Assembly (NCBI RefSeq): GCF_009931435.1 | Contig: NZ_CP043414.1 | DNA from: Escherichia coli | GTDB taxonomy: Bacteria > Pseudomonadota > Gammaproteobacteria > Enterobacterales > Enterobacteriaceae | Strand: one strand, 5' to 3' | Length of the DNA stretch: 64,000 nucleotides | In this document: in pieces, positions 1-45,130 of the stretch | Layout: the number at the start of each line of letters is the position of its first letter | Position numbering within the stretch: position 1 is the stretch's first letter | Translations under genes and position numbers: made by a program | The notes under the pieces: generated by a model | What the model was told of the DNA's origin: nothing | The model's input: the letters and a program-made list of their open reading frames with translations, nothing else | Databases searched by the model: none

Positions 1-53
1 CGGTGAGGCGCAATGTTGCGGGGGCTTAATCCCTGGTGGCATTGGTTGCTGGA

Positions 54-121
54 GAGAGAAAACCCCCGCACGTTGCAGATATTCACCTGACAACATCACG
101 GGGGCTAATCTTGAACCTAGA
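54..121 (-). ncRNA. rdl: Candidate Rdl antisense sRNA, unit 1 (position approximate)
   Basis: Nested hairpin (cccccg...caggt/acctg...cggggg) preceded on the + strand by gagagagaaaa, which reads as hairpin plus U-run on the - strand, about 50 nt upstream of the ldr ATG. Rdl is known to be encoded antisense to the ldr leader. Confidence 0.3.
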
Positions 122-170
122 CCACTCAAGAATAGCCGCGAAACGTTGTCATTACAACACAGGCGGCTAT

Positions 171-278
171 ATGACGCTCGCAGAACTGGGCATGGCCTTC
201 TGGCATGATTTAGCGGCTCCGGTCATTGCTGGCATTCTTGCCAGCATGATCGTGAACTGGCTGAATAAGCGGAAGTAA
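171..278 (+). CDS. ldr: Ldr type I toxin peptide, copy 1 (35 aa, MTLAELGMAFWHDLAAPVIAGILASMIVNWLNKRK)
   Basis: 35-codon ORF closely matching the K-12 LdrD peptide as recalled; followed by a stem-loop terminator. Confidence 0.85.
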   Translation: MTLAELGMAFWHDLAAPVIAGILASMIVNWLNKRK

Positions 279-328
279 CGTGTCAGACGGGCGTCAGGCT
301 GCCGTAATGGCAATTTGCGCCCGGACCA

Positions 329-362
329 GGCCGCAGAGATAAAACTCTGCGGCCTTTTTCGT
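329..362 (+). terminator. Intrinsic terminator after ldr copy 1
   Basis: GGCCGCAG...CTGCGGCC stem-loop followed by TTTTT. Confidence 0.6.
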
Positions 363-536
363 AAGAAAAATGCAACGGTTGCAAGCGGATAATATTCTGC
401 GGAATGCGCAGCACAGAGTGAAGAAGTGATGGATTCTGGAACAGAAAAACAGTCGTAGAATCAGCAGCAAGCCGGAAGGGTTCCGGTGAGGCGCAATGTT
501 GCGGGGGCTTTATCCCTGGTGGCATTGGTTGCTGGA

Positions 537-604
537 GAGAGAAAACCCCCGCACGTTGCAGGTATGCACCTGACAACATCACGGGGGCCATTCTTGCATC
601 CAAA
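537..604 (-). ncRNA. rdl: Candidate Rdl antisense sRNA, unit 2 (approximate)
   Basis: Same hairpin plus U-run structure at the equivalent position in unit 2. Confidence 0.3.
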
Positions 605-653
605 CAATACAAGAATAGCCGCGAAACGTTGTCATTACAACAGAGGCGGCTAT

Positions 654-761
654 ATGACGCTCGCAGAACTGGGCATGGCCTTCTGGCATGATTTAGCGGC
701 TCCGGTCATTGCTGGCATTCTTGCCAGTCTGATCGTGAACTGGCTGAACAAGCGGAAGTAA
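654..761 (+). CDS. ldr: Ldr type I toxin peptide, copy 2 (35 aa, ...ASLIVNWLNKRK)
   Basis: Same 35-codon ORF in repeat unit 2; M26L relative to copy 1. Confidence 0.85.
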   Translation: MTLAELGMAFWHDLAAPVIAGILASLIVNWLNKRK

Positions 762-811
762 CGTGTCAGACGGGCGTCAGGCTGCCGTAATGGCAATTTG
801 CGCCCGGACCA

Positions 812-845
812 GGCCGCAGGGATAAAACTCTGCGGCCTTTTTCGT
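812..845 (+). terminator. Intrinsic terminator after ldr copy 2
   Basis: Same GC stem-loop plus T-run. Confidence 0.6.
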
Positions 846-1020
846 AAGAAAAATGCAACGGTTGCAAGCGGATAATATTCTGCGGAATGCGCAGCACAGA
901 GTGAAGAAGTGATGGATTTCGACGAACAAAAATGGCCGTAGAATCAGCGGCAAGCCGGAAGGGTTCCGGTGAGGCGCAATGTTGCGGGGGGCTTTATCCC
1001 TGGTGGCATTGGTTGCTGGA

Positions 1021-1088
1021 GAGAGAAAACCCCCGCACGTTGCAGGTATGCACCTGACAACACCACGGGGGCCATTCTTGCATCTAGA
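1021..1088 (-). ncRNA. rdl: Candidate Rdl antisense sRNA, unit 3 (approximate)
   Basis: Same structure at the equivalent position in unit 3. Confidence 0.3.
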
Positions 1089-1137
1089 CCATTCAAGAAT
1101 AGCCGCGAAACGTTGTCATTACAACACTGGCGGCTAT

Positions 1138-1245
1138 ATGACGCTCGCAGAGCTGGGCATGGCCTTCTGGCACGATTTAGCGGCTCCGGTCATTGCTGGC
1201 ATTCTTGCCAGTCTGATCGTGAACTGGCTGAACAAGCGGAAGTAA
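1138..1245 (+). CDS. ldr: Ldr type I toxin peptide, copy 3
   Basis: Same ORF in repeat unit 3; peptide identical to copy 2. Confidence 0.85.
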   Translation: MTLAELGMAFWHDLAAPVIAGILASLIVNWLNKRK

Positions 1246-1295
1246 CGTGTCGGACGAGCGTCAGGCTGCCGTAATGGCAATTTGCGCCCGGACCA

Positions 1296-1328
1296 GGCCG
1301 CAGGGATAAAACTCTGCGGCCTTTTTCG
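1296..1328 (+). terminator. Intrinsic terminator after ldr copy 3
   Basis: Same GC stem-loop plus T-run. Confidence 0.6.
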
Positions 1329-1504
1329 TAAGAAAAATGCAACGGTTGCAAGCGGATAATATTCTGCGGAATGCGCAGCACAGAGTGAAGAAGTGATGGA
1401 TTTCGACGAACAAAAATGGCCGTAGAATCAGCGGCAAGCCGGAAGGGTTCCGGTGAGGCGCAATGTTGCGGGGGGCTTTATCCCTGGTGGCATTGGTTGC
1501 TGGA

Positions 1505-1572
1505 GAGAGAAAACCCCCGCACGTTGCAGGTATGCACCTGACAACACCACGGGGGCCATTCTTGCATCTAGA
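1505..1572 (-). ncRNA. rdl: Candidate Rdl antisense sRNA, unit 4 (approximate)
   Basis: Same structure at the equivalent position in unit 4. Confidence 0.3.
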
Positions 1573-1621
1573 CCATTCAAGAATAGCCGCGAAACGTTGT
1601 CATTACAACACTGGCGGCTAT

Positions 1622-1729
1622 ATGACGCTCGCAGAGCTGGGCATGGCCTTCTGGCACGATTTAGCGGCTCCGGTCATTGCTGGCATTCTTGCCAGTCTGA
1701 TCGTGAACTGGCTGAACAAGCGGAAGTAA
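1622..1729 (+). CDS. ldr: Ldr type I toxin peptide, copy 4
   Basis: Same ORF in repeat unit 4; unit appears identical to unit 3. Confidence 0.85.
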   Translation: MTLAELGMAFWHDLAAPVIAGILASLIVNWLNKRK

Positions 1730-1779
1730 CGTGTCGGACGAGCGTCAGGCTGCCGTAATGGCAATTTGCGCCCGGACCA

Positions 1780-1812
1780 GGCCGCAGGGATAAAACTCTG
1801 CGGCCTTTTTCG
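1780..1812 (+). terminator. Intrinsic terminator after ldr copy 4
   Basis: Same GC stem-loop plus T-run. Confidence 0.6.
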
Positions 1813-1987
1813 TAAGAAAAATGCAACGGTTGCAAGCGGATAATATTCTGCGGAATGTGCAGCACAGAGTGAAGAAGTGATGGATTCCGGAACAGAAAAA
1901 CAGTCGTAGAATCAGCGGCAAGCCGGAAGGGTTCCGGTGAGGCGCAATGTTGCGGGGGCTTAATCCCTGGTGGCATTGGTTGCTGGA

Positions 1988-2055
1988 GAGAGAAAACCCC
2001 CGCACGTTGCAGGTATGCACCTGACAACATCACGGGGGCTAATCTTGAACCCAAA
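1988..2055 (-). ncRNA. rdl: Candidate Rdl antisense sRNA, unit 5 (approximate)
   Basis: Same structure at the equivalent position in unit 5. Confidence 0.3.
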
Positions 2056-2104
2056 CAACTCAAGAATAGCCGCGAAACGTTGTCATTACAACAGAGGCGG
2101 CTAT

Positions 2105-2212
2105 ATGACGCTCGCAGAACTGGGCATGGCCTTCTGGCATGATTTAGCGGCTCCGGTCATTGCTGGCATTCTTGCCAGTCTGATCGTGAACTCGCTGAAT
2201 AAGCGGAAGTAA
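2105..2212 (+). CDS. ldr: Ldr type I toxin peptide, copy 5, variant (...ASLIVNSLNKRK, Trp30 to Ser)
   Basis: Same ORF frame in repeat unit 5; tgg to tcg change read directly in the sequence. Confidence 0.8.
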   Translation: MTLAELGMAFWHDLAAPVIAGILASLIVNSLNKRK

Positions 2213-2262
2213 CGTGTCATGCGGGCGTCAGGCTGCCGTAATGGCAATTTGCGCCCGGATCA

Positions 2263-2295
2263 GGCCGCAGGGGTGAAACTCTGCGGCCTTTTTCG
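2263..2295 (+). terminator. Intrinsic terminator after ldr copy 5, convergent with the bcsG 3' end
   Basis: Same GC stem-loop plus T-run, ending 4 nt before the bcsG stop. Confidence 0.6.
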
Positions 2296-2298
2296 TTC

Positions 2299-37138: not shown

Positions 37139-37154
37139 AGTTTTACTCAGACAT

Positions 37155-37260
37155 AAAAAAAACCCGGCATAGGGGACCGGGAAGAGGATAGTCTGCCGTC
37201 TCCAGACTAATAAACCGTTATAACACTCCCTGTTGGCACGGGAAACTTTGTGCTCTCAGT
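37155..37260 (-). ncRNA. gadY: GadY small RNA, antisense to the gadX 3' UTR
   Basis: Reverse complement begins ACTGAGAGCACAAAGTTTCCCGTGCCAACAGGG... and ends in CCCGGTCCCCTATGCCGGGTTTTTTTT, matching GadY as recalled. Confidence 0.8.
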
Positions 37261-37506
37261 AAGTTAAATATAACTTTTACTGGAAATAAGATCAGCCATT
37301 TTTTTATAAACATAAGCTATACGCTGTGTGAAAATATATTGGTGTTGCATTTACTTATTATCAATTAACTGTTATGCAAAACTACTTTGTGGATAAATTT
37401 TGGTCCTACCAAATATGGCAGTTTTTGCACTAAGAAACAGTCTGGCGTCATTTCATTAGTATACTGAAATTGAAATAATCGCAGTAATGAAATATAAGGG
37501 ATAGTC

Positions 37507-42893: not shown

Positions 42894-43231
42894 TTTAGTC
42901 CCTGAAAATTCTTGAGATATAACGGTTCTTTAAATTGCGCGCGAGGAGAGGTATGAGGGATTTACAGACCAGCGGCATAGTGGGGTTGTCAGCCAGTAAG
43001 ATGGGATGCAAGCACAGTGATCGACATGGTGAGGTCAACGACAAAAAAAATGTTGCCGTTCTGCCAACAGTTCCTGCCAGCATTCGGGCAACGAAGGGTT
43101 CTACTGGTGGATACACATACCAGGGGAATAAAGTCGTTTTCGCCTCTCCTTTAGTCATCACCGGGGATAATGAAATCAGCATCTGCATCCCTCTTCATGC
43201 CTGCCATCATTTTCAGTTAATTATGTCCTGA

Positions 43232-43759
43232 CTAAAAATAAGATGTGATACCCAGGGTGACGATGTCGCTCATACGTCTTAGTTTCAGCTTGTACATAAT
43301 GTTGAATTTCTGAATCTTTAATGTTTGTTGCGAAATATTGAGCGTTGACGTGATATTGCTTTCGTTTTTGTTTTTCAGAATCAGCTGCATAATTTTGAAC
43401 TGATTATGTGAAAAACATAATTGTGAATTCTTATGGGGCAAGTGTTTACCATAAGTAATCTCAAGAAGATTTTTGATACTTTCTTTGCGGCTGACAAAAT
43501 AAATAGGCGCTTTAGCTTTTAGTTTACTGATGTGATAAGGTGCCAAAACAATAATTCTCTCGGCGTCTAATTTCTCCAGAAATTTAATCGCTTCTTCATC
43601 AAGGATATGGTTGTGATAGGTATCAATGATAACCTTGAAGGGTTTATTACCTACTTTTTTGATCTCTGACAGGGAATTGATTTTTATCATTTCGTGATTA
43701 TCTTTCAACTGCCAAAAGCCCTGTAAAAGAAAAGAATCTTTCGTCATGAGAAAAATCAT
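43232..43759 (-). CDS. gadE: LuxR-family acid resistance activator GadE (175 aa)
   Basis: Starts MIFLMTKDSFLLQGFWQ...; the 201-aa track ORF is an upstream extension. Confidence 0.9.
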   Translation of the reverse strand: MIFLMTKDSFLLQGFWQLKDNHEMIKINSLSEIKKVGNKPFKVIIDTYHNHILDEEAIKFLEKLDAERIIVLAPYHISKLKAKAPIYFVSRKESIKNLLEITYGKHLPHKNSQLCFSHNQFKIMQLILKNKNESNITSTLNISQQTLKIQKFNIMYKLKLRRMSDIVTLGITSYF

Positions 43760-44557
43760 AACTTGCTCCTTAGCCGTTATCGTTTCGAACATGTCATCCT
43801 TTTCATTATTTACATCCCTGTCCGAATCGTTGTTCAATATAGTAAACGCCTATAAGAACCTTGCCCTTCGTGAACTAATACGTCTATTAACACTAATCAA
43901 TACTTCAGATTTATCCATCACGCACTCCATATATTGATCCTAAGTAAAATTCCTGGTTGTTATCAGATTGTAAACTGCAAACAAAAAATTAACGTTTGCG
44001 GATTACTGCCCAAGAATAAGTTATCAATAACCAGTTTGTGATCTCTGAAGAATATTACTAAAGTTAAAATGTAATCCGATTTAAATATCGAGTCTCCTTG
44101 TTTCGACTTAAGCTGGCAATTGGATTGCCAGCTTTCTTTTAACGCATTGAAATTACCTGAGTAAATAACTCATTCATGTCTTCAGGTTTTTATATAGCGT
44201 CTGGAGACACGGATATTTATGCAATGTAATCAACGCCAGTTGCAAAAAAATGAACCCGGATTACTTATTTAACCGCCCATAGCATCAACGTTTACGGAAC
44301 TCTTTGTTCACTTTCCCACAGCACTTTTAAAACATTAAACCTGACTACGGAAAATATCAGCCATGATAATGTTTGAAATGGCTAATTTGCCATGCAATGA
44401 AAAAAATCAGATAAAATTCAGTAGGTTGAAATACTCATCAGCAGGTAATTATTTCAATGATAGCGCGCAATTGATCTAAAATGCTGTGTAGCGGAGAGAG
44501 TATTAATTGGATCATAGTCACATCAAGTGACTATGATCCAGGTGGCAATAGGGATAA

Positions 44558-45130
44558 TTATTGCTTTTTAACAAACAAACTGGCGAAGCTGAACAGGCTA
44601 GCGGCGCTAAATATCAGTTCAATTCCCACTAGTGTGGAAACCAGCGTTACAGAAACCATCGGCGTAGCACCAAGGAATATCCAGGCAATGACGATATCCA
44701 GCACACCAATAACGAGCTGTAGCCAACTGCCTTTCATTGAACGCTGACGATACCAACTCATCAGGCGAATAACCCCTGCCACACAGAACAAACCGGCAAT
44801 AAATGCCGCAATGGCAAAAATGCCCAGCTCTGGTGCGCGGATGAAGAAATAGCCGATCAATAAATAGGCGACTGCGACGAGGAAACCGGATAATACCGGC
44901 CAGAAATTATGACTGCGGTTGCTGAATAACCCGACAATAAGCGCAATACCCGAGCAGATTAATAATGCACCCACTACTGTGCTTAAAATATCGCCAGAGA
45001 CGAACGGAAAACTGATACACAGCAACCCGACGATAAACAGCAGCACGGCAATAAACTGGATTGCTCTGCGATGTTTTTTAAGCATCTCCAGATCAAACTT
45101 CAAAATTGTTGCCTTATCTATATATAACAT
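44558..45130 (-). CDS. hdeD: Acid resistance membrane protein HdeD
   Basis: 190-aa membrane ORF matching HdeD. Confidence 0.95.
   Translation of the reverse strand: MLYIDKATILKFDLEMLKKHRRAIQFIAVLLFIVGLLCISFPFVSGDILSTVVGALLICSGIALIVGLFSNRSHNFWPVLSGFLVAVAYLLIGYFFIRAPELGIFAIAAFIAGLFCVAGVIRLMSWYRQRSMKGSWLQLVIGVLDIVIAWIFLGATPMVSVTLVSTLVGIELIFSAASLFSFASLFVKKQ

What the first reader, a model, noticed from the sequence alone, without database searches (positions are those of the whole stretch)
43760..44557. Long regulatory region upstream of gadE, about 800 bp without a long ORF
The gadE-hdeD interval is unusually long, AT-rich and free of long ORFs, consistent with the known multi-promoter gadE control region that integrates many regulators and contains the ArrS antisense sRNA. 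I cannot place ArrS precisely from sequence alone.
Basis: partly seen in the sequence, partly recalled or inferred. Interest (0 to 1): 0.25.

Follow-up and report, generated by a model that had tools for sequence, protein, structure and literature searches.

The report
Known gadE control region with ArrS
This 798-bp gene-free stretch is the well-studied multi-promoter control region in front of the E. coli acid-resistance master regulator gadE, and the small antisense RNA gene arrS sits in it at 44071-44140 on the + strand; it is ordinary and already known.

Summary
Window 43760-44557 is exactly the 798-bp hdeD-gadE intergenic region (both genes on the - strand). It has 35.6% GC against 49.9% for the window and is the largest ORF-free gap in the 64 kb. 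It aligns without gaps to E. coli K-12 MG1655 3657568-3658365 (96.2% identity).

K-12 arrS (b4704) maps to window 44071-44140 (+), 70/70 identical. It has a sigma-S-type -10 (C-TAAAGT) 7 nt upstream of its start and an 11-bp terminator hairpin plus U-tract at its end.

The published gadE start sites (-566, -324/-317, -124, -21) map to 44325, 44083/44076, 43883 and 43780 (-).

Substitutions against K-12 are strongly clustered:
- hdeD-proximal 164 bp: 11.6%, about neutral (flanking-gene dS is 0.08-0.10).
- Central 405 bp carrying P3, ArrS and P2: 0.5%.
- Last 229 bp: 3.9%.

The same conserved islands hold across the other Escherichia lineages compared.

Side findings:
- A covarying 14-bp hairpin just after hdeD, matching a K-12 Term-seq 3' end.
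- A gadE-sense 3' end opposite the ArrS terminator.
- A conserved 26-codon upstream ORF with no coding signature.

Nothing here is new; interest is low.

The parts
43760..44557 (-). hdeD-gadE intergenic region: the 798-bp gadE(-mdtEF) control region ('sensory integration region')
   Evidence: Gapless alignment to K-12 3657568-3658365 with 30 mismatches. GC 35.6%. Largest ORF-free gap in the window. Literature: PMC3708157.
43232..43759 (-). gadE coding sequence (175 aa), the gene controlled by the region
   Evidence: ORF list. 98.5% identical to K-12 gadE with no amino-acid change. Annotated as gadE in 5,400+ genomes.
44558..45130 (-). hdeD coding sequence (190 aa), the upstream neighbour
44071..44140 (+). 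arrS: 70-nt antisense small RNA gene, complementary to -312..-381 of the long gadE leader
   Evidence: K-12 arrS b4704 (3657985-3658054) maps here at 70/70 identity. Predicted fold -20.2 kcal/mol, z -3.84. K-12 Term-seq 3' end at 3657984/5 corresponds to window 44140. Present in 5,411 of 5,426 E. coli genomes and identical in 4,095. Only 1-4 substitutions in the other Escherichia lineages, plus a 3-nt deletion in E. albertii.
44110..44140 (+). ArrS intrinsic terminator: 11-bp stem (44110-44120 / 44124-44134), 3-nt loop, then TCTTTT
   Evidence: Terminator scan, inverted repeat I3, fold. The stem is invariant across Escherichia apart from one A-to-G change that keeps a G-U pair.
44058..44064 (+). 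Putative ArrS promoter -10 element C-TAAAGT (-13C plus TAAAGT at -12..-7 from the 44071 start), a sigma-S-type element
   Evidence: Read directly from the sequence. The pattern aCTAnAnT is kept in all Escherichia loci. Sigma-S and GadE dependence comes from the literature (PMC6755755). Assigning this hexamer as the -10 is my inference.
44325..44360 (-). P3 promoter: T3 start site at 44325 (-566), -10 TAATGT at 44337-44332, -35-like CTGATA at 44360-44355
   Evidence: TSS position from PMC3708157, mapped through the gapless alignment. The block -625..-545 is 95-100% conserved across Escherichia. The hexamer assignment is my inference.
44076..44083 (-). T2 start sites (-317 and -324) of promoter P2. 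They lie inside arrS, so T2 mRNA and ArrS overlap by 6-13 nt at their 5' ends
   Evidence: Literature positions mapped. No substitution against K-12 between -410 and -230.
43883..43883 (-). T1 start site (-124) of the GadE-autoactivated promoter P1
   Evidence: Literature position mapped. -188..-105 is identical to K-12. -203..-1 is largely conserved across Escherichia: 82-100% identity per 40-bp bin from -180.
43780..43780 (-). T start site (-21), a weak promoter or a processing site
   Evidence: Literature. The window has G at -31 where K-12 alone has A, inside the presumed -10.
44504..44540 (-). hdeD 3'-end hairpin: 14-bp stem (44540-44527 / 44521-44508), 5-nt loop, with the mapped hdeD-sense 3' end 4 nt after the stem (44504)
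   Evidence: Perfect inverted repeat I1. Fold -23.7 kcal/mol, z -7.7. Three of 14 pairs have compensatory changes and 93.8% of cells are paired. K-12 Term-seq 3' end at 3657621 (+).
44394..44557 (.). Fast-evolving, hdeD-proximal spacer part of the region (apart from the hairpin)
   Evidence: 19 of 164 mismatches against K-12, similar to synonymous divergence of the flanking genes. Only 17 of 5,426 genomes are >=99% identical over window 44400-44557 (158 bp).

Best explanation
The interval is the hdeD-gadE intergenic control region of the E. coli acid fitness island. It works here as it does in K-12.

Shown here:
- The region is collinear with K-12.
- arrS is identical to K-12, and no substitution lies within 45 nt upstream of the P3, P2 and P1 starts.
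- Its central 405 bp is under strong purifying selection.

Taken from the K-12 literature:
- The AT-rich DNA is silenced by H-NS/StpA.
- It is opened by several activator circuits (EvgA-YdeO, GadX/GadW, GadE autoactivation, ArcA, MnmE).
- These circuits fire three to four promoters, giving gadE-mdtEF mRNAs with leaders of 566, 324/317, 124 and possibly 21 nt.
- From the opposite strand, a sigma-S- and GadE-dependent promoter makes the 70-nt ArrS RNA (44071 to 44140, +), which ends at an intrinsic terminator.
- ArrS is perfectly complementary to -312..-381 of the longest (P3) leader. Pairing makes an RNase III substrate, and overexpression stabilises gadE mRNA and raises acid resistance.
- ArrS also binds Hfq and acts in trans: it activates cfa through its 5' end, and it represses fepA through its terminator loop.

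Inferred: the hdeD-proximal ~160 bp is mostly neutral spacer, apart from a conserved hairpin that defines the hdeD mRNA 3' end.
For: - Identity and collinearity: gapless alignment, 768/798 identical; arrS 70/70; gadF 91/91. K-12 annotation. The locus is present in 5,416 of 5,426 E. coli genomes.
- ArrS anatomy: the terminator found by an independent scan lies at 44110-44134 with a U-tract to 44140. Fold z -3.84. C-TAAAGT lies at -13..-7 from the start. C7, the base mutated to break cfa pairing, is present (PMC6755755).
- Expression in K-12: Term-seq places an ArrS 3' end exactly at the equivalent of 44140, with 171,112 reads in LB OD 2.0 and 982,952 in M63, and none listed in LB OD 0.4. 5'-RACE start sites are reported in PMC3708157.
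- Mechanism papers: RNase III site in ArrS (PMC6212723). Hfq, cfa and acid-stress targets (PMC5145812; PMC6755755). fepA via the terminator loop (PMC11979758). H-NS/StpA occupancy (PMC12266141; PMC3708157). CsrA binding to the gadE leader (PMC11210196).
- Constraint: substitution density is 11.6% / 0.5% / 3.9% in the distal, central and proximal segments (chi-square p = 2e-9), against dS of 0.078-0.102 in hdeD, gadE and mdtE. The same conserved islands (-625..-545, -381..-250, -203..-1) hold in E. albertii, E. whittamii and other Escherichia lineages, while -500..-385 is missing there.
Against: - Nothing contradicts the assignment.
- No transcription data exist for this strain, so every start site and regulator is transferred from K-12.
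- The sigma-70 consensus scan found no more promoter-like sites than shuffles do (4 against 4.0 expected). None of the four coincides with a published gadE start site. This is expected for activator-dependent promoters, but it means the sequence alone does not prove them.
- A GAD-box consensus scan was uninformative in this AT-rich DNA.
- In K-12, deleting arrS gave no acid-survival phenotype (PMC6755755), so the physiological weight of ArrS is uncertain.
- The window carries G at -31 where K-12 has A, inside the presumed -10 of the weak -21 promoter, so that start may differ.
Confidence: 0.95

Rival explanations
1. The interval hides an unannotated small protein gene or a regulatory leader peptide. 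The best candidate is the 26-codon ORF at 43930-43850 (- strand, MECVMDKSEVLISVNRRISSRRARFL). It lies in the P2/P3-derived gadE leader, and its translation could modulate gadE in the way EvgL does for evgA.
For: The ORF is intact, in frame and of the same length in all eight Escherichia lineages compared. It has an AGGA motif 7 nt before the ATG. A leader peptide (EvgL) exists upstream of evgA in the same regulatory cascade (PMC11210196).
Against: Variable sites fall 3/5/4 on codon positions 1/2/3, so there is no excess at the third position, and most changes alter the amino acid. The invariant middle of the ORF coincides with the P1 promoter, and the AGGA is part of a TTAGGAT motif upstream of P1, so DNA-level constraint explains why the ORF is preserved. 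The curated K-12 record annotates no CDS here. A literature search found no report. The other candidate, a 38-aa + strand ORF at 44363-44479, is broken by stop codons in K-12, O157:H7 and others.
Confidence: 0.06
2. The interval is largely non-functional AT-rich spacer left by horizontal acquisition of the acid fitness island, and only a short promoter next to gadE matters.
For: It has low GC like the rest of the island. The hdeD-proximal 164 bp evolves at about the neutral rate and is very variable among E. coli. About 110 bp (-500..-385) is dispensable in the other Escherichia lineages.
Against: The central 405 bp, which lies 230-634 bp from gadE, shows 0.5% divergence against dS of 0.08-0.10. 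It also contains blocks of 95-100% identity across species. Published deletion analysis shows that P3 at -566 contributes most of the anaerobic activity (PMC3708157).
Confidence: 0.03
3. arrS is present but silent or functionally irrelevant in this strain, a conserved sequence kept only because it overlaps the P2 promoter and the long gadE leader.
For: In K-12, deleting arrS gave no acid-survival or cfa phenotype under the conditions tested (PMC6755755). P2's start sites and its -10 lie inside arrS, so part of the conservation may serve gadE.
Against: The terminator hairpin and U-tract have no known role for P2, yet they are invariant across Escherichia species while the sequence immediately 3' of them is lost or diverged. 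ArrS is among the strongest Term-seq 3' ends in K-12 in M63. Overexpression phenotypes and compensatory-mutation-verified pairing with cfa are published.
Confidence: 0.08

Closest known systems
E. coli K-12 hdeD-gadE intergenic 'sensory integration region' (Ma et al. 2004; Sayed & Foster 2009; reviewed in PMC3708157)
   Same: Same position, same 798-bp length, gapless alignment at 96.2% identity. No substitution within 45 nt upstream of the mapped P3, P2 and P1 starts.
   Different: There are 30 substitutions, 19 of them in the hdeD-proximal 164 bp. This distal allele is rare: only 17 of 5,426 complete genomes are >=99% identical. The window has G rather than the K-12-specific A at -31, in the -10 of the weak -21 promoter.
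ArrS small RNA (arrS, b4704; Aiso et al. 2011, 2014)
   Same: 70/70 identical. Same antisense position in the gadE leader, same terminator, same 5' seed including C7.
   Different: Nothing in the sequence differs. Expression was not tested in this strain. Rfam 15 gave no match to it, and PGAP leaves it unannotated in the RefSeq genomes sampled.
GadY, the other cis-antisense sRNA of the same island (Rfam RF00122; window 37150-37263, - strand)
   Same: Both are sigma-S-linked, Hfq-binding antisense RNAs. Each overlaps an acid-regulator mRNA and also has trans targets by RIL-seq (PMC5145812).
   Different: GadY overlaps the 3' end of gadX in the gadX-gadW intergenic region. ArrS overlaps a 5' leader. 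The two sequences are unrelated.
Bidirectional terminator hairpins (Ju et al. 2019, cited in PMC7815308)
   Same: The ArrS terminator hairpin also has a mapped 3' end 4 nt after its complement on the gadE-sense strand in K-12 (3658019 +).
   Different: The gadE-sense side has no U-tract and only about 0.15% of the ArrS read count. It may be a processing or trimming stop rather than a termination site.

Membership tests
hdeD-gadE gadE control region of the E. coli acid fitness island | Lies between the hdeD stop and the gadE start, with both genes co-oriented and mdtEF downstream of gadE | tested here: met
   ORFs and gene order; annotations of matching genomes.
hdeD-gadE gadE control region of the E. 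coli acid fitness island | About 798 bp and collinear with the K-12 reference sequence | tested here: met
   Gapless alignment, 768/798 identical.
hdeD-gadE gadE control region of the E. coli acid fitness island | Sequence preserved at the mapped start sites and promoter cores (-566, -324/-317, -124) | tested here: met
   No substitution against K-12 within 45 nt upstream of T3, T2 or T1. These blocks are conserved across Escherichia species.
hdeD-gadE gadE control region of the E. coli acid fitness island | Sequence preserved at the weak -21 promoter | tested here: inconclusive
   G at -31 where K-12 has A. All other lineages compared have G, so K-12 is the odd one out. The literature doubts that this promoter is active.
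hdeD-gadE gadE control region of the E. coli acid fitness island | AT-rich DNA bound and silenced by H-NS/StpA | tested here: inconclusive
   AT-richness is met (35.6% GC). Protein binding is known only for K-12 and cannot be tested with these tools.
hdeD-gadE gadE control region of the E. coli acid fitness island | Transcription actually initiates at these sites and responds to EvgA/YdeO, GadX/W, GadE and ArcA | not testable with these tools
   Needs RNA or reporter experiments in this strain.
ArrS sRNA | Sequence homology to K-12 arrS (b4704) | tested here: met
   70/70 identical.
ArrS sRNA | Encoded antisense to, and wholly within, the P3-derived gadE 5' leader | tested here: met
   arrS is on the + strand at -312..-381, gadE is on the - strand, and T3 is at -566.
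ArrS sRNA | Rho-independent terminator with a 3' U-tract (the Hfq-binding module) | tested here: met
   11-bp stem, 3-nt loop, then UCUUUU. The K-12 3' end maps to the last U.
ArrS sRNA | Sigma-S / GadE-dependent promoter | tested here: inconclusive
   A sigma-S-like C-TAAAGT lies at -13..-7 and is conserved. GadE-box scanning is not discriminating in this DNA. The dependence itself is known only from the literature.
ArrS sRNA | Expressed as a ~70-nt RNA in stationary phase or acid | not testable with these tools
   K-12 Term-seq supports it; there are no data for this strain.
Canonical intrinsic terminator (for the hairpin after hdeD) | Stable stem-loop immediately downstream of the gene | tested here: met
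   14-bp perfect stem, -23.7 kcal/mol, z -7.7. Three pairs show compensatory changes.
Canonical intrinsic terminator (for the hairpin after hdeD) | U-rich tract directly after the stem | tested here: not met
   The stem is followed by AAUUAAUACU and was not called by the terminator scan. It therefore works like a 3'-end-defining hairpin (K-12 3' end 4 nt after the stem) but is not a textbook intrinsic terminator.

The most novel reading that the evidence does not exclude
The ArrS terminator hairpin may be a two-way element. On the gadE-sense strand it may also create a premature 3' end in the P3-derived leader (K-12 Term-seq 3' end at -347, equivalent to window 44106). In that case part of P3 transcription would be attenuated or processed into a ~220-nt leader RNA before reaching gadE. 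Together with the conserved 26-codon upstream ORF further down the leader, this would add an unexplored post-initiation layer to gadE control.
Probability: 0.15. Interest if true: 0.3.

Novelty: already known. Interest (0 to 1): 0.07.

Why it matters
gadE is the master switch of glutamate-dependent acid resistance, which lets E. coli and Shigella survive the stomach. Its long control region is a textbook case of many signals converging on one gene. For this window the value is annotation only:
- arrS, which automatic pipelines left unannotated and which got no Rfam match, is placed to the base.
- The published start sites are transferred to window coordinates.
- Selection is shown to concentrate on the central P3-ArrS-P2 block, while the hdeD-proximal part drifts.

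No new biology is claimed.

Tried and rejected
- Rfam: no family matched arrS, even at E <= 1 on a sequence identical to K-12 arrS. I read this as a gap in the library, not evidence against the gene. The weak TtnuHACA25 snoRNA hit at 44448-44559 (26 bits against a gathering score of 100) is a chance match driven by the hdeD hairpin.
- Sigma-70 consensus scan: 4 sites against 4.0 expected, and none coincides with a published gadE start site. It is uninformative for activator-dependent promoters.
- GAD-box (TTAGGATTTTGTTATTTAAA) scan: the best score was 13/20, while shuffles average 13.2. It cannot locate GadE sites in this AT-rich DNA.
- 38-aa + strand ORF at 44363-44479: rejected as a gene because stop codons interrupt it in K-12, O157:H7 and others.
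- 26-codon - strand upstream ORF: kept only as a note, since it shows no codon-position bias and no report turned up in the literature.
- The idea that the rare distal allele reflects something special (diversifying selection or import): rejected in favour of neutral drift, because its divergence from K-12 (11.6%) is close to the synonymous divergence of the flanking genes (0.08-0.10).
- Primary papers not held in the library: Aiso 2011, Thomason 2015 and the RNase III supplement. ArrS start and cleavage details therefore rest on the K-12 annotation and on secondary citations.
- Protein searches, structure prediction and covariance-model building were not used, because nothing in the interval called for them.

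Full report
**1. The observation**

The window carries the E. coli acid fitness island. gadE is the - strand ORF ending at 43232 with its annotated ATG at 43759. hdeD is 44558-45130 on the - strand.

- Composition: GC is 35.6% against 49.9% for the whole window, in the lowest 3.8% of 798-bp windows (profile).
- Length: it is the largest part of the 64-kb window not covered by an ORF of at least 80 or 100 aa. It is also the longest of the intergenic gaps I worked out from the 39 features annotated in 41 kb around the locus in a strain with an identical copy.
- ORFs: the lack of long ORFs is real but is what the composition predicts. Shuffles give a longest ORF of 56 +/- 15 aa.

**2. What it is**

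Megablast finds the locus in 5,416 of 5,426 complete E. coli genomes, always with hdeD and gadE on either side. Against K-12 MG1655 (locus L001) the interval aligns without a single gap to 3657568-3658365, with 30 mismatches (96.2% identity).

[quoted passage not shown] It reports start sites at -21 (T), -124 (T1), -324/-317 (T2) and -566 (T3) relative to the gadE ATG, and more than ten regulators. Because the alignment is gapless, position -N maps to window 43759+N. That gives:

| Start site | Position relative to the gadE ATG | Window coordinate (- strand) |
|---|---|---|
| T3 | -566 | 44325 |
| T2 | -324 / -317 | 44083 / 44076 |
| T1 | -124 | 43883 |
| T | -21 | 43780 |

No substitution against K-12 lies within 45 nt upstream of T3, T2 or T1. 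A plausible P3 core reads CTGATA-17-TAATGT (44360-44355 and 44337-44332); this assignment is my inference.

**3. Placing ArrS**

The curated K-12 record annotates arrS (b4704) at 3657985-3658054, on the strand opposite gadE. This maps to window 44071-44140 on the + strand, 70 of 70 bases identical. Several independent features agree with that placement:

- A blind terminator scan calls an 11-bp stem with a 3-nt loop at 44110-44134, followed by TCTTTT ending at 44140.
- The RNA folds at -20.2 kcal/mol, z -3.84.
- C-TAAAGT lies at -13..-7 from the 44071 start. This is a sigma-S-type -10 with the -13 C (inference). It fits the reported sigma-S and GadE dependence (PMC6755755).
- K-12 Term-seq (Adams et al. 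2021, PMC7815308, Supplementary file 1) lists an ArrS 3' end at 3657984/5, the equivalent of 44140. It has 171,112 reads in LB OD 2.0 and 982,952 in M63 glucose, with no entry in LB OD 0.4.

ArrS spans -312..-381. It is therefore fully complementary to the P3 leader, and it overlaps the 5' end of the P2 transcripts by 6-13 nt.

Rfam 15 gave no match to it, and PGAP leaves it unannotated in the genomes sampled. That explains why it is easy to miss.

**4. How it works**

This section is transferred from K-12; it was not tested in this strain.

- The AT-rich DNA is covered by H-NS/StpA and opened by activators (PMC12266141; PMC3708157).
- ArrS pairs in cis with the long gadE leader. An RNase III cleavage site has been mapped in ArrS (PMC6212723). 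Overexpression stabilises gadE mRNA and raises acid survival.
- ArrS also binds Hfq and acts in trans. It activates cfa by masking an RNase E site, with pairing verified by a C7G compensatory mutation. It represses fepA through its terminator loop (PMC11979758).
- CsrA binds the gadE leader (PMC11210196).
- One caveat: an arrS deletion had no acid-shock phenotype in K-12.

**5. Evidence of constraint obtained here**

Substitutions between the window and K-12 are strongly clustered (chi-square p = 2e-9):

| Segment | Mismatches / length | Divergence |
|---|---|---|
| -798..-635 (hdeD-proximal) | 19 / 164 | 11.6% |
| -634..-230 (P3, ArrS, P2) | 2 / 405 | 0.5% |
| -229..-1 | 9 / 229 | 3.9% |

Synonymous divergence of the flanking genes is 0.078 (hdeD), 0.083 (gadE) and 0.102 (mdtE). 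The distal part therefore evolves at about the neutral rate, while the central block is some 16-fold slower.

Other E. coli lineages show the same contrast. So do two whole-collection searches. The 70-nt arrS is identical in 4,095 genomes and within 1-3 mismatches in the other 1,316. The distal 158 bp is >=99% identical in only 17 genomes.

A GadE-based scan of species-representative genomes found the locus only in Escherichia. In the E. albertii, E. whittamii and three further Escherichia loci the conserved islands are -625..-545, -381..-250 and -203..-1. About 110 bp just 3' of the ArrS terminator (-500..-385) is missing in four of those loci: E. albertii, E. whittamii, strain E69 and Escherichia sp. 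E1V33.

**6. Other things inside the interval**

*(a) A hairpin after hdeD.* A perfect 14-bp hairpin with a 5-nt loop lies at 44508-44540, 17 nt after the hdeD stop codon.
- It folds at -23.7 kcal/mol, z -7.7.
- Three of its 14 pairs show compensatory double changes, and 93.8% of cells are paired across eight sequences. Every shifted register gives no more than 48%.
- The outermost pair is U-A in the window and C-G in K-12.
- K-12 Term-seq has an hdeD-sense 3' end 4 nt after the stem (3657621, equivalent to 44504).
- It has no U-tract, so it defines the hdeD 3' end without being a canonical intrinsic terminator.

*(b) A gadE-sense 3' end.* Term-seq also lists a gadE-sense 3' end at 3658019 (-347, equivalent to 44106). 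It lies 4 nt after the complement of the ArrS terminator hairpin, with about 0.15% of the ArrS signal. It could be a weak bidirectional stop or a trimming product.

*(c) A 26-codon upstream ORF.* A 26-codon ORF at 43930-43850 (- strand), with an AGGA 7 nt upstream, is intact in all eight lineages. Its variable sites fall 3/5/4 on the three codon positions, and it overlaps P1. I see no evidence that it codes.

*(d) A 38-aa ORF.* The 38-aa + strand ORF at 44363-44479 is broken by stop codons in other strains.

**7. Verdict**

The region and ArrS are already known. The only additions are base-level placement in this window and a description of where selection acts. Interest is low.

Noticed in passing
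window 44508-44540 (- strand); 3' end equivalent at 44504: Perfect 14-bp hairpin 17 nt after the hdeD stop. Three pairs show compensatory changes across Escherichia, including U-A in this window against C-G in K-12. A K-12 Term-seq hdeD-sense 3' end lies 4 nt after the stem. There is no U-tract, so this is not a textbook terminator.
   Followed up: yes
window 44106 (- strand), opposite the ArrS terminator 44110-44134: K-12 Term-seq (M63 glucose) lists a gadE-sense 3' end at 3658019 (-347), 4 nt after the complement of the ArrS terminator hairpin, with 1,432 reads against 982,952 for ArrS. It could be a weak bidirectional stop or a processing product of the P3 leader. The source paper does not discuss it.
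   Followed up: partly
window 43850-43930 (- strand): A 26-codon upstream ORF (MECVMDKSEVLISVNRRISSRRARFL) in the P2/P3 gadE leader, with AGGA 7 nt before the ATG. It is intact in all eight Escherichia lineages but shows no third-codon-position bias, and it overlaps the P1 promoter.
   Followed up: partly
window 44394-44557: The hdeD-proximal ~160 bp is very variable within E. coli. This window's allele is >=99% matched in only 17 of 5,426 complete genomes. Most others are 80-95% identical or are not detected by megablast. The divergence is close to the local synonymous rate, so neutral drift is enough to explain it.
   Followed up: yes
window 43790 (-31 from the gadE ATG): K-12 has A here, and every other lineage compared (this window, O157:H7, three other E. 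coli strains and the other Escherichia lineages) has G. The site lies in the presumed -10 of the weak -21 'P' promoter reported for K-12, so that start may be a K-12 peculiarity.
   Followed up: partly
window 43043-43133 (- strand): GadF, the sRNA derived from the gadE 3' UTR (Rfam ES205, 105 bits), is 91/91 identical to K-12 gadF. PGAP annotates a 92-aa 'hypothetical protein' (WP_001205315.1) on the opposite strand across it, within the window's 98-aa + strand ORF 42935-43231 and ending at the same stop codon. This is probably a spurious call.
   Followed up: partly
loci L005-L008, equivalent to window about 44144-44259: About 110 bp immediately 3' of the ArrS terminator (-500..-385) is absent in the E. 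albertii, E. whittamii and two other Escherichia loci, while arrS itself is kept almost unchanged.
   Followed up: partly
window 1-2296: Tandem array of 484-bp units (4.7 copies, 95% matches, running off the left edge) carrying five Rfam rdlD antitoxin RNA matches (57-2056, - strand). From memory, not checked here, K-12 has a single ldrD/rdlD unit at this locus.
   Followed up: partly
window 37150-37263 (-), 52786-52817 (+), 61495-61812 (-): Other Rfam matches in the window: GadY; the shuA/chuA 5' UTR thermoregulator (so the chu haem-uptake island lies inside the acid fitness island, and this is a chuA-positive lineage unlike K-12); and two AgrB antisense RNAs.
   Followed up: no
loci L009 and L010: Contigs labelled Flavobacterium paronense CECT 8460 and Streptomyces sp. 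DH24 carry E. coli gadE-region DNA. The L009 intergenic region is 96% identical to the window, with single-base indels typical of a long-read assembly. This is most likely contamination of those assemblies.
   Followed up: partly
locus L015 (E. coli strain 3059, NZ_CP103559.1): In this blood isolate a Tn3-family transposase remnant replaces everything from inside the glutamate decarboxylase gene through gadX, gadW, mdtEF, gadE and about two thirds of the intergenic region. The strain therefore lacks gadE and arrS.
   Followed up: partly
locus L011 (E. coli strain N96): This strain's hdeD-gadE region is 100% identical to the window, but it has an IS66 element inserted in mdtF, which is intact in the window. 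The window is therefore from a related but different genome.
   Followed up: no
window 44326-44378: Nested inverted repeats flank the P3 core: TTTAAAACATTA / TAATGTTTGAAA, 29 nt apart, with AGCCAT-N13-ATGGCT inside. The -620..-581 part is 95-100% identical in every Escherichia locus compared, and the -10-proximal arm has single changes in four of them. They are candidates for a regulator-binding site; I could not assign a protein.
   Followed up: no
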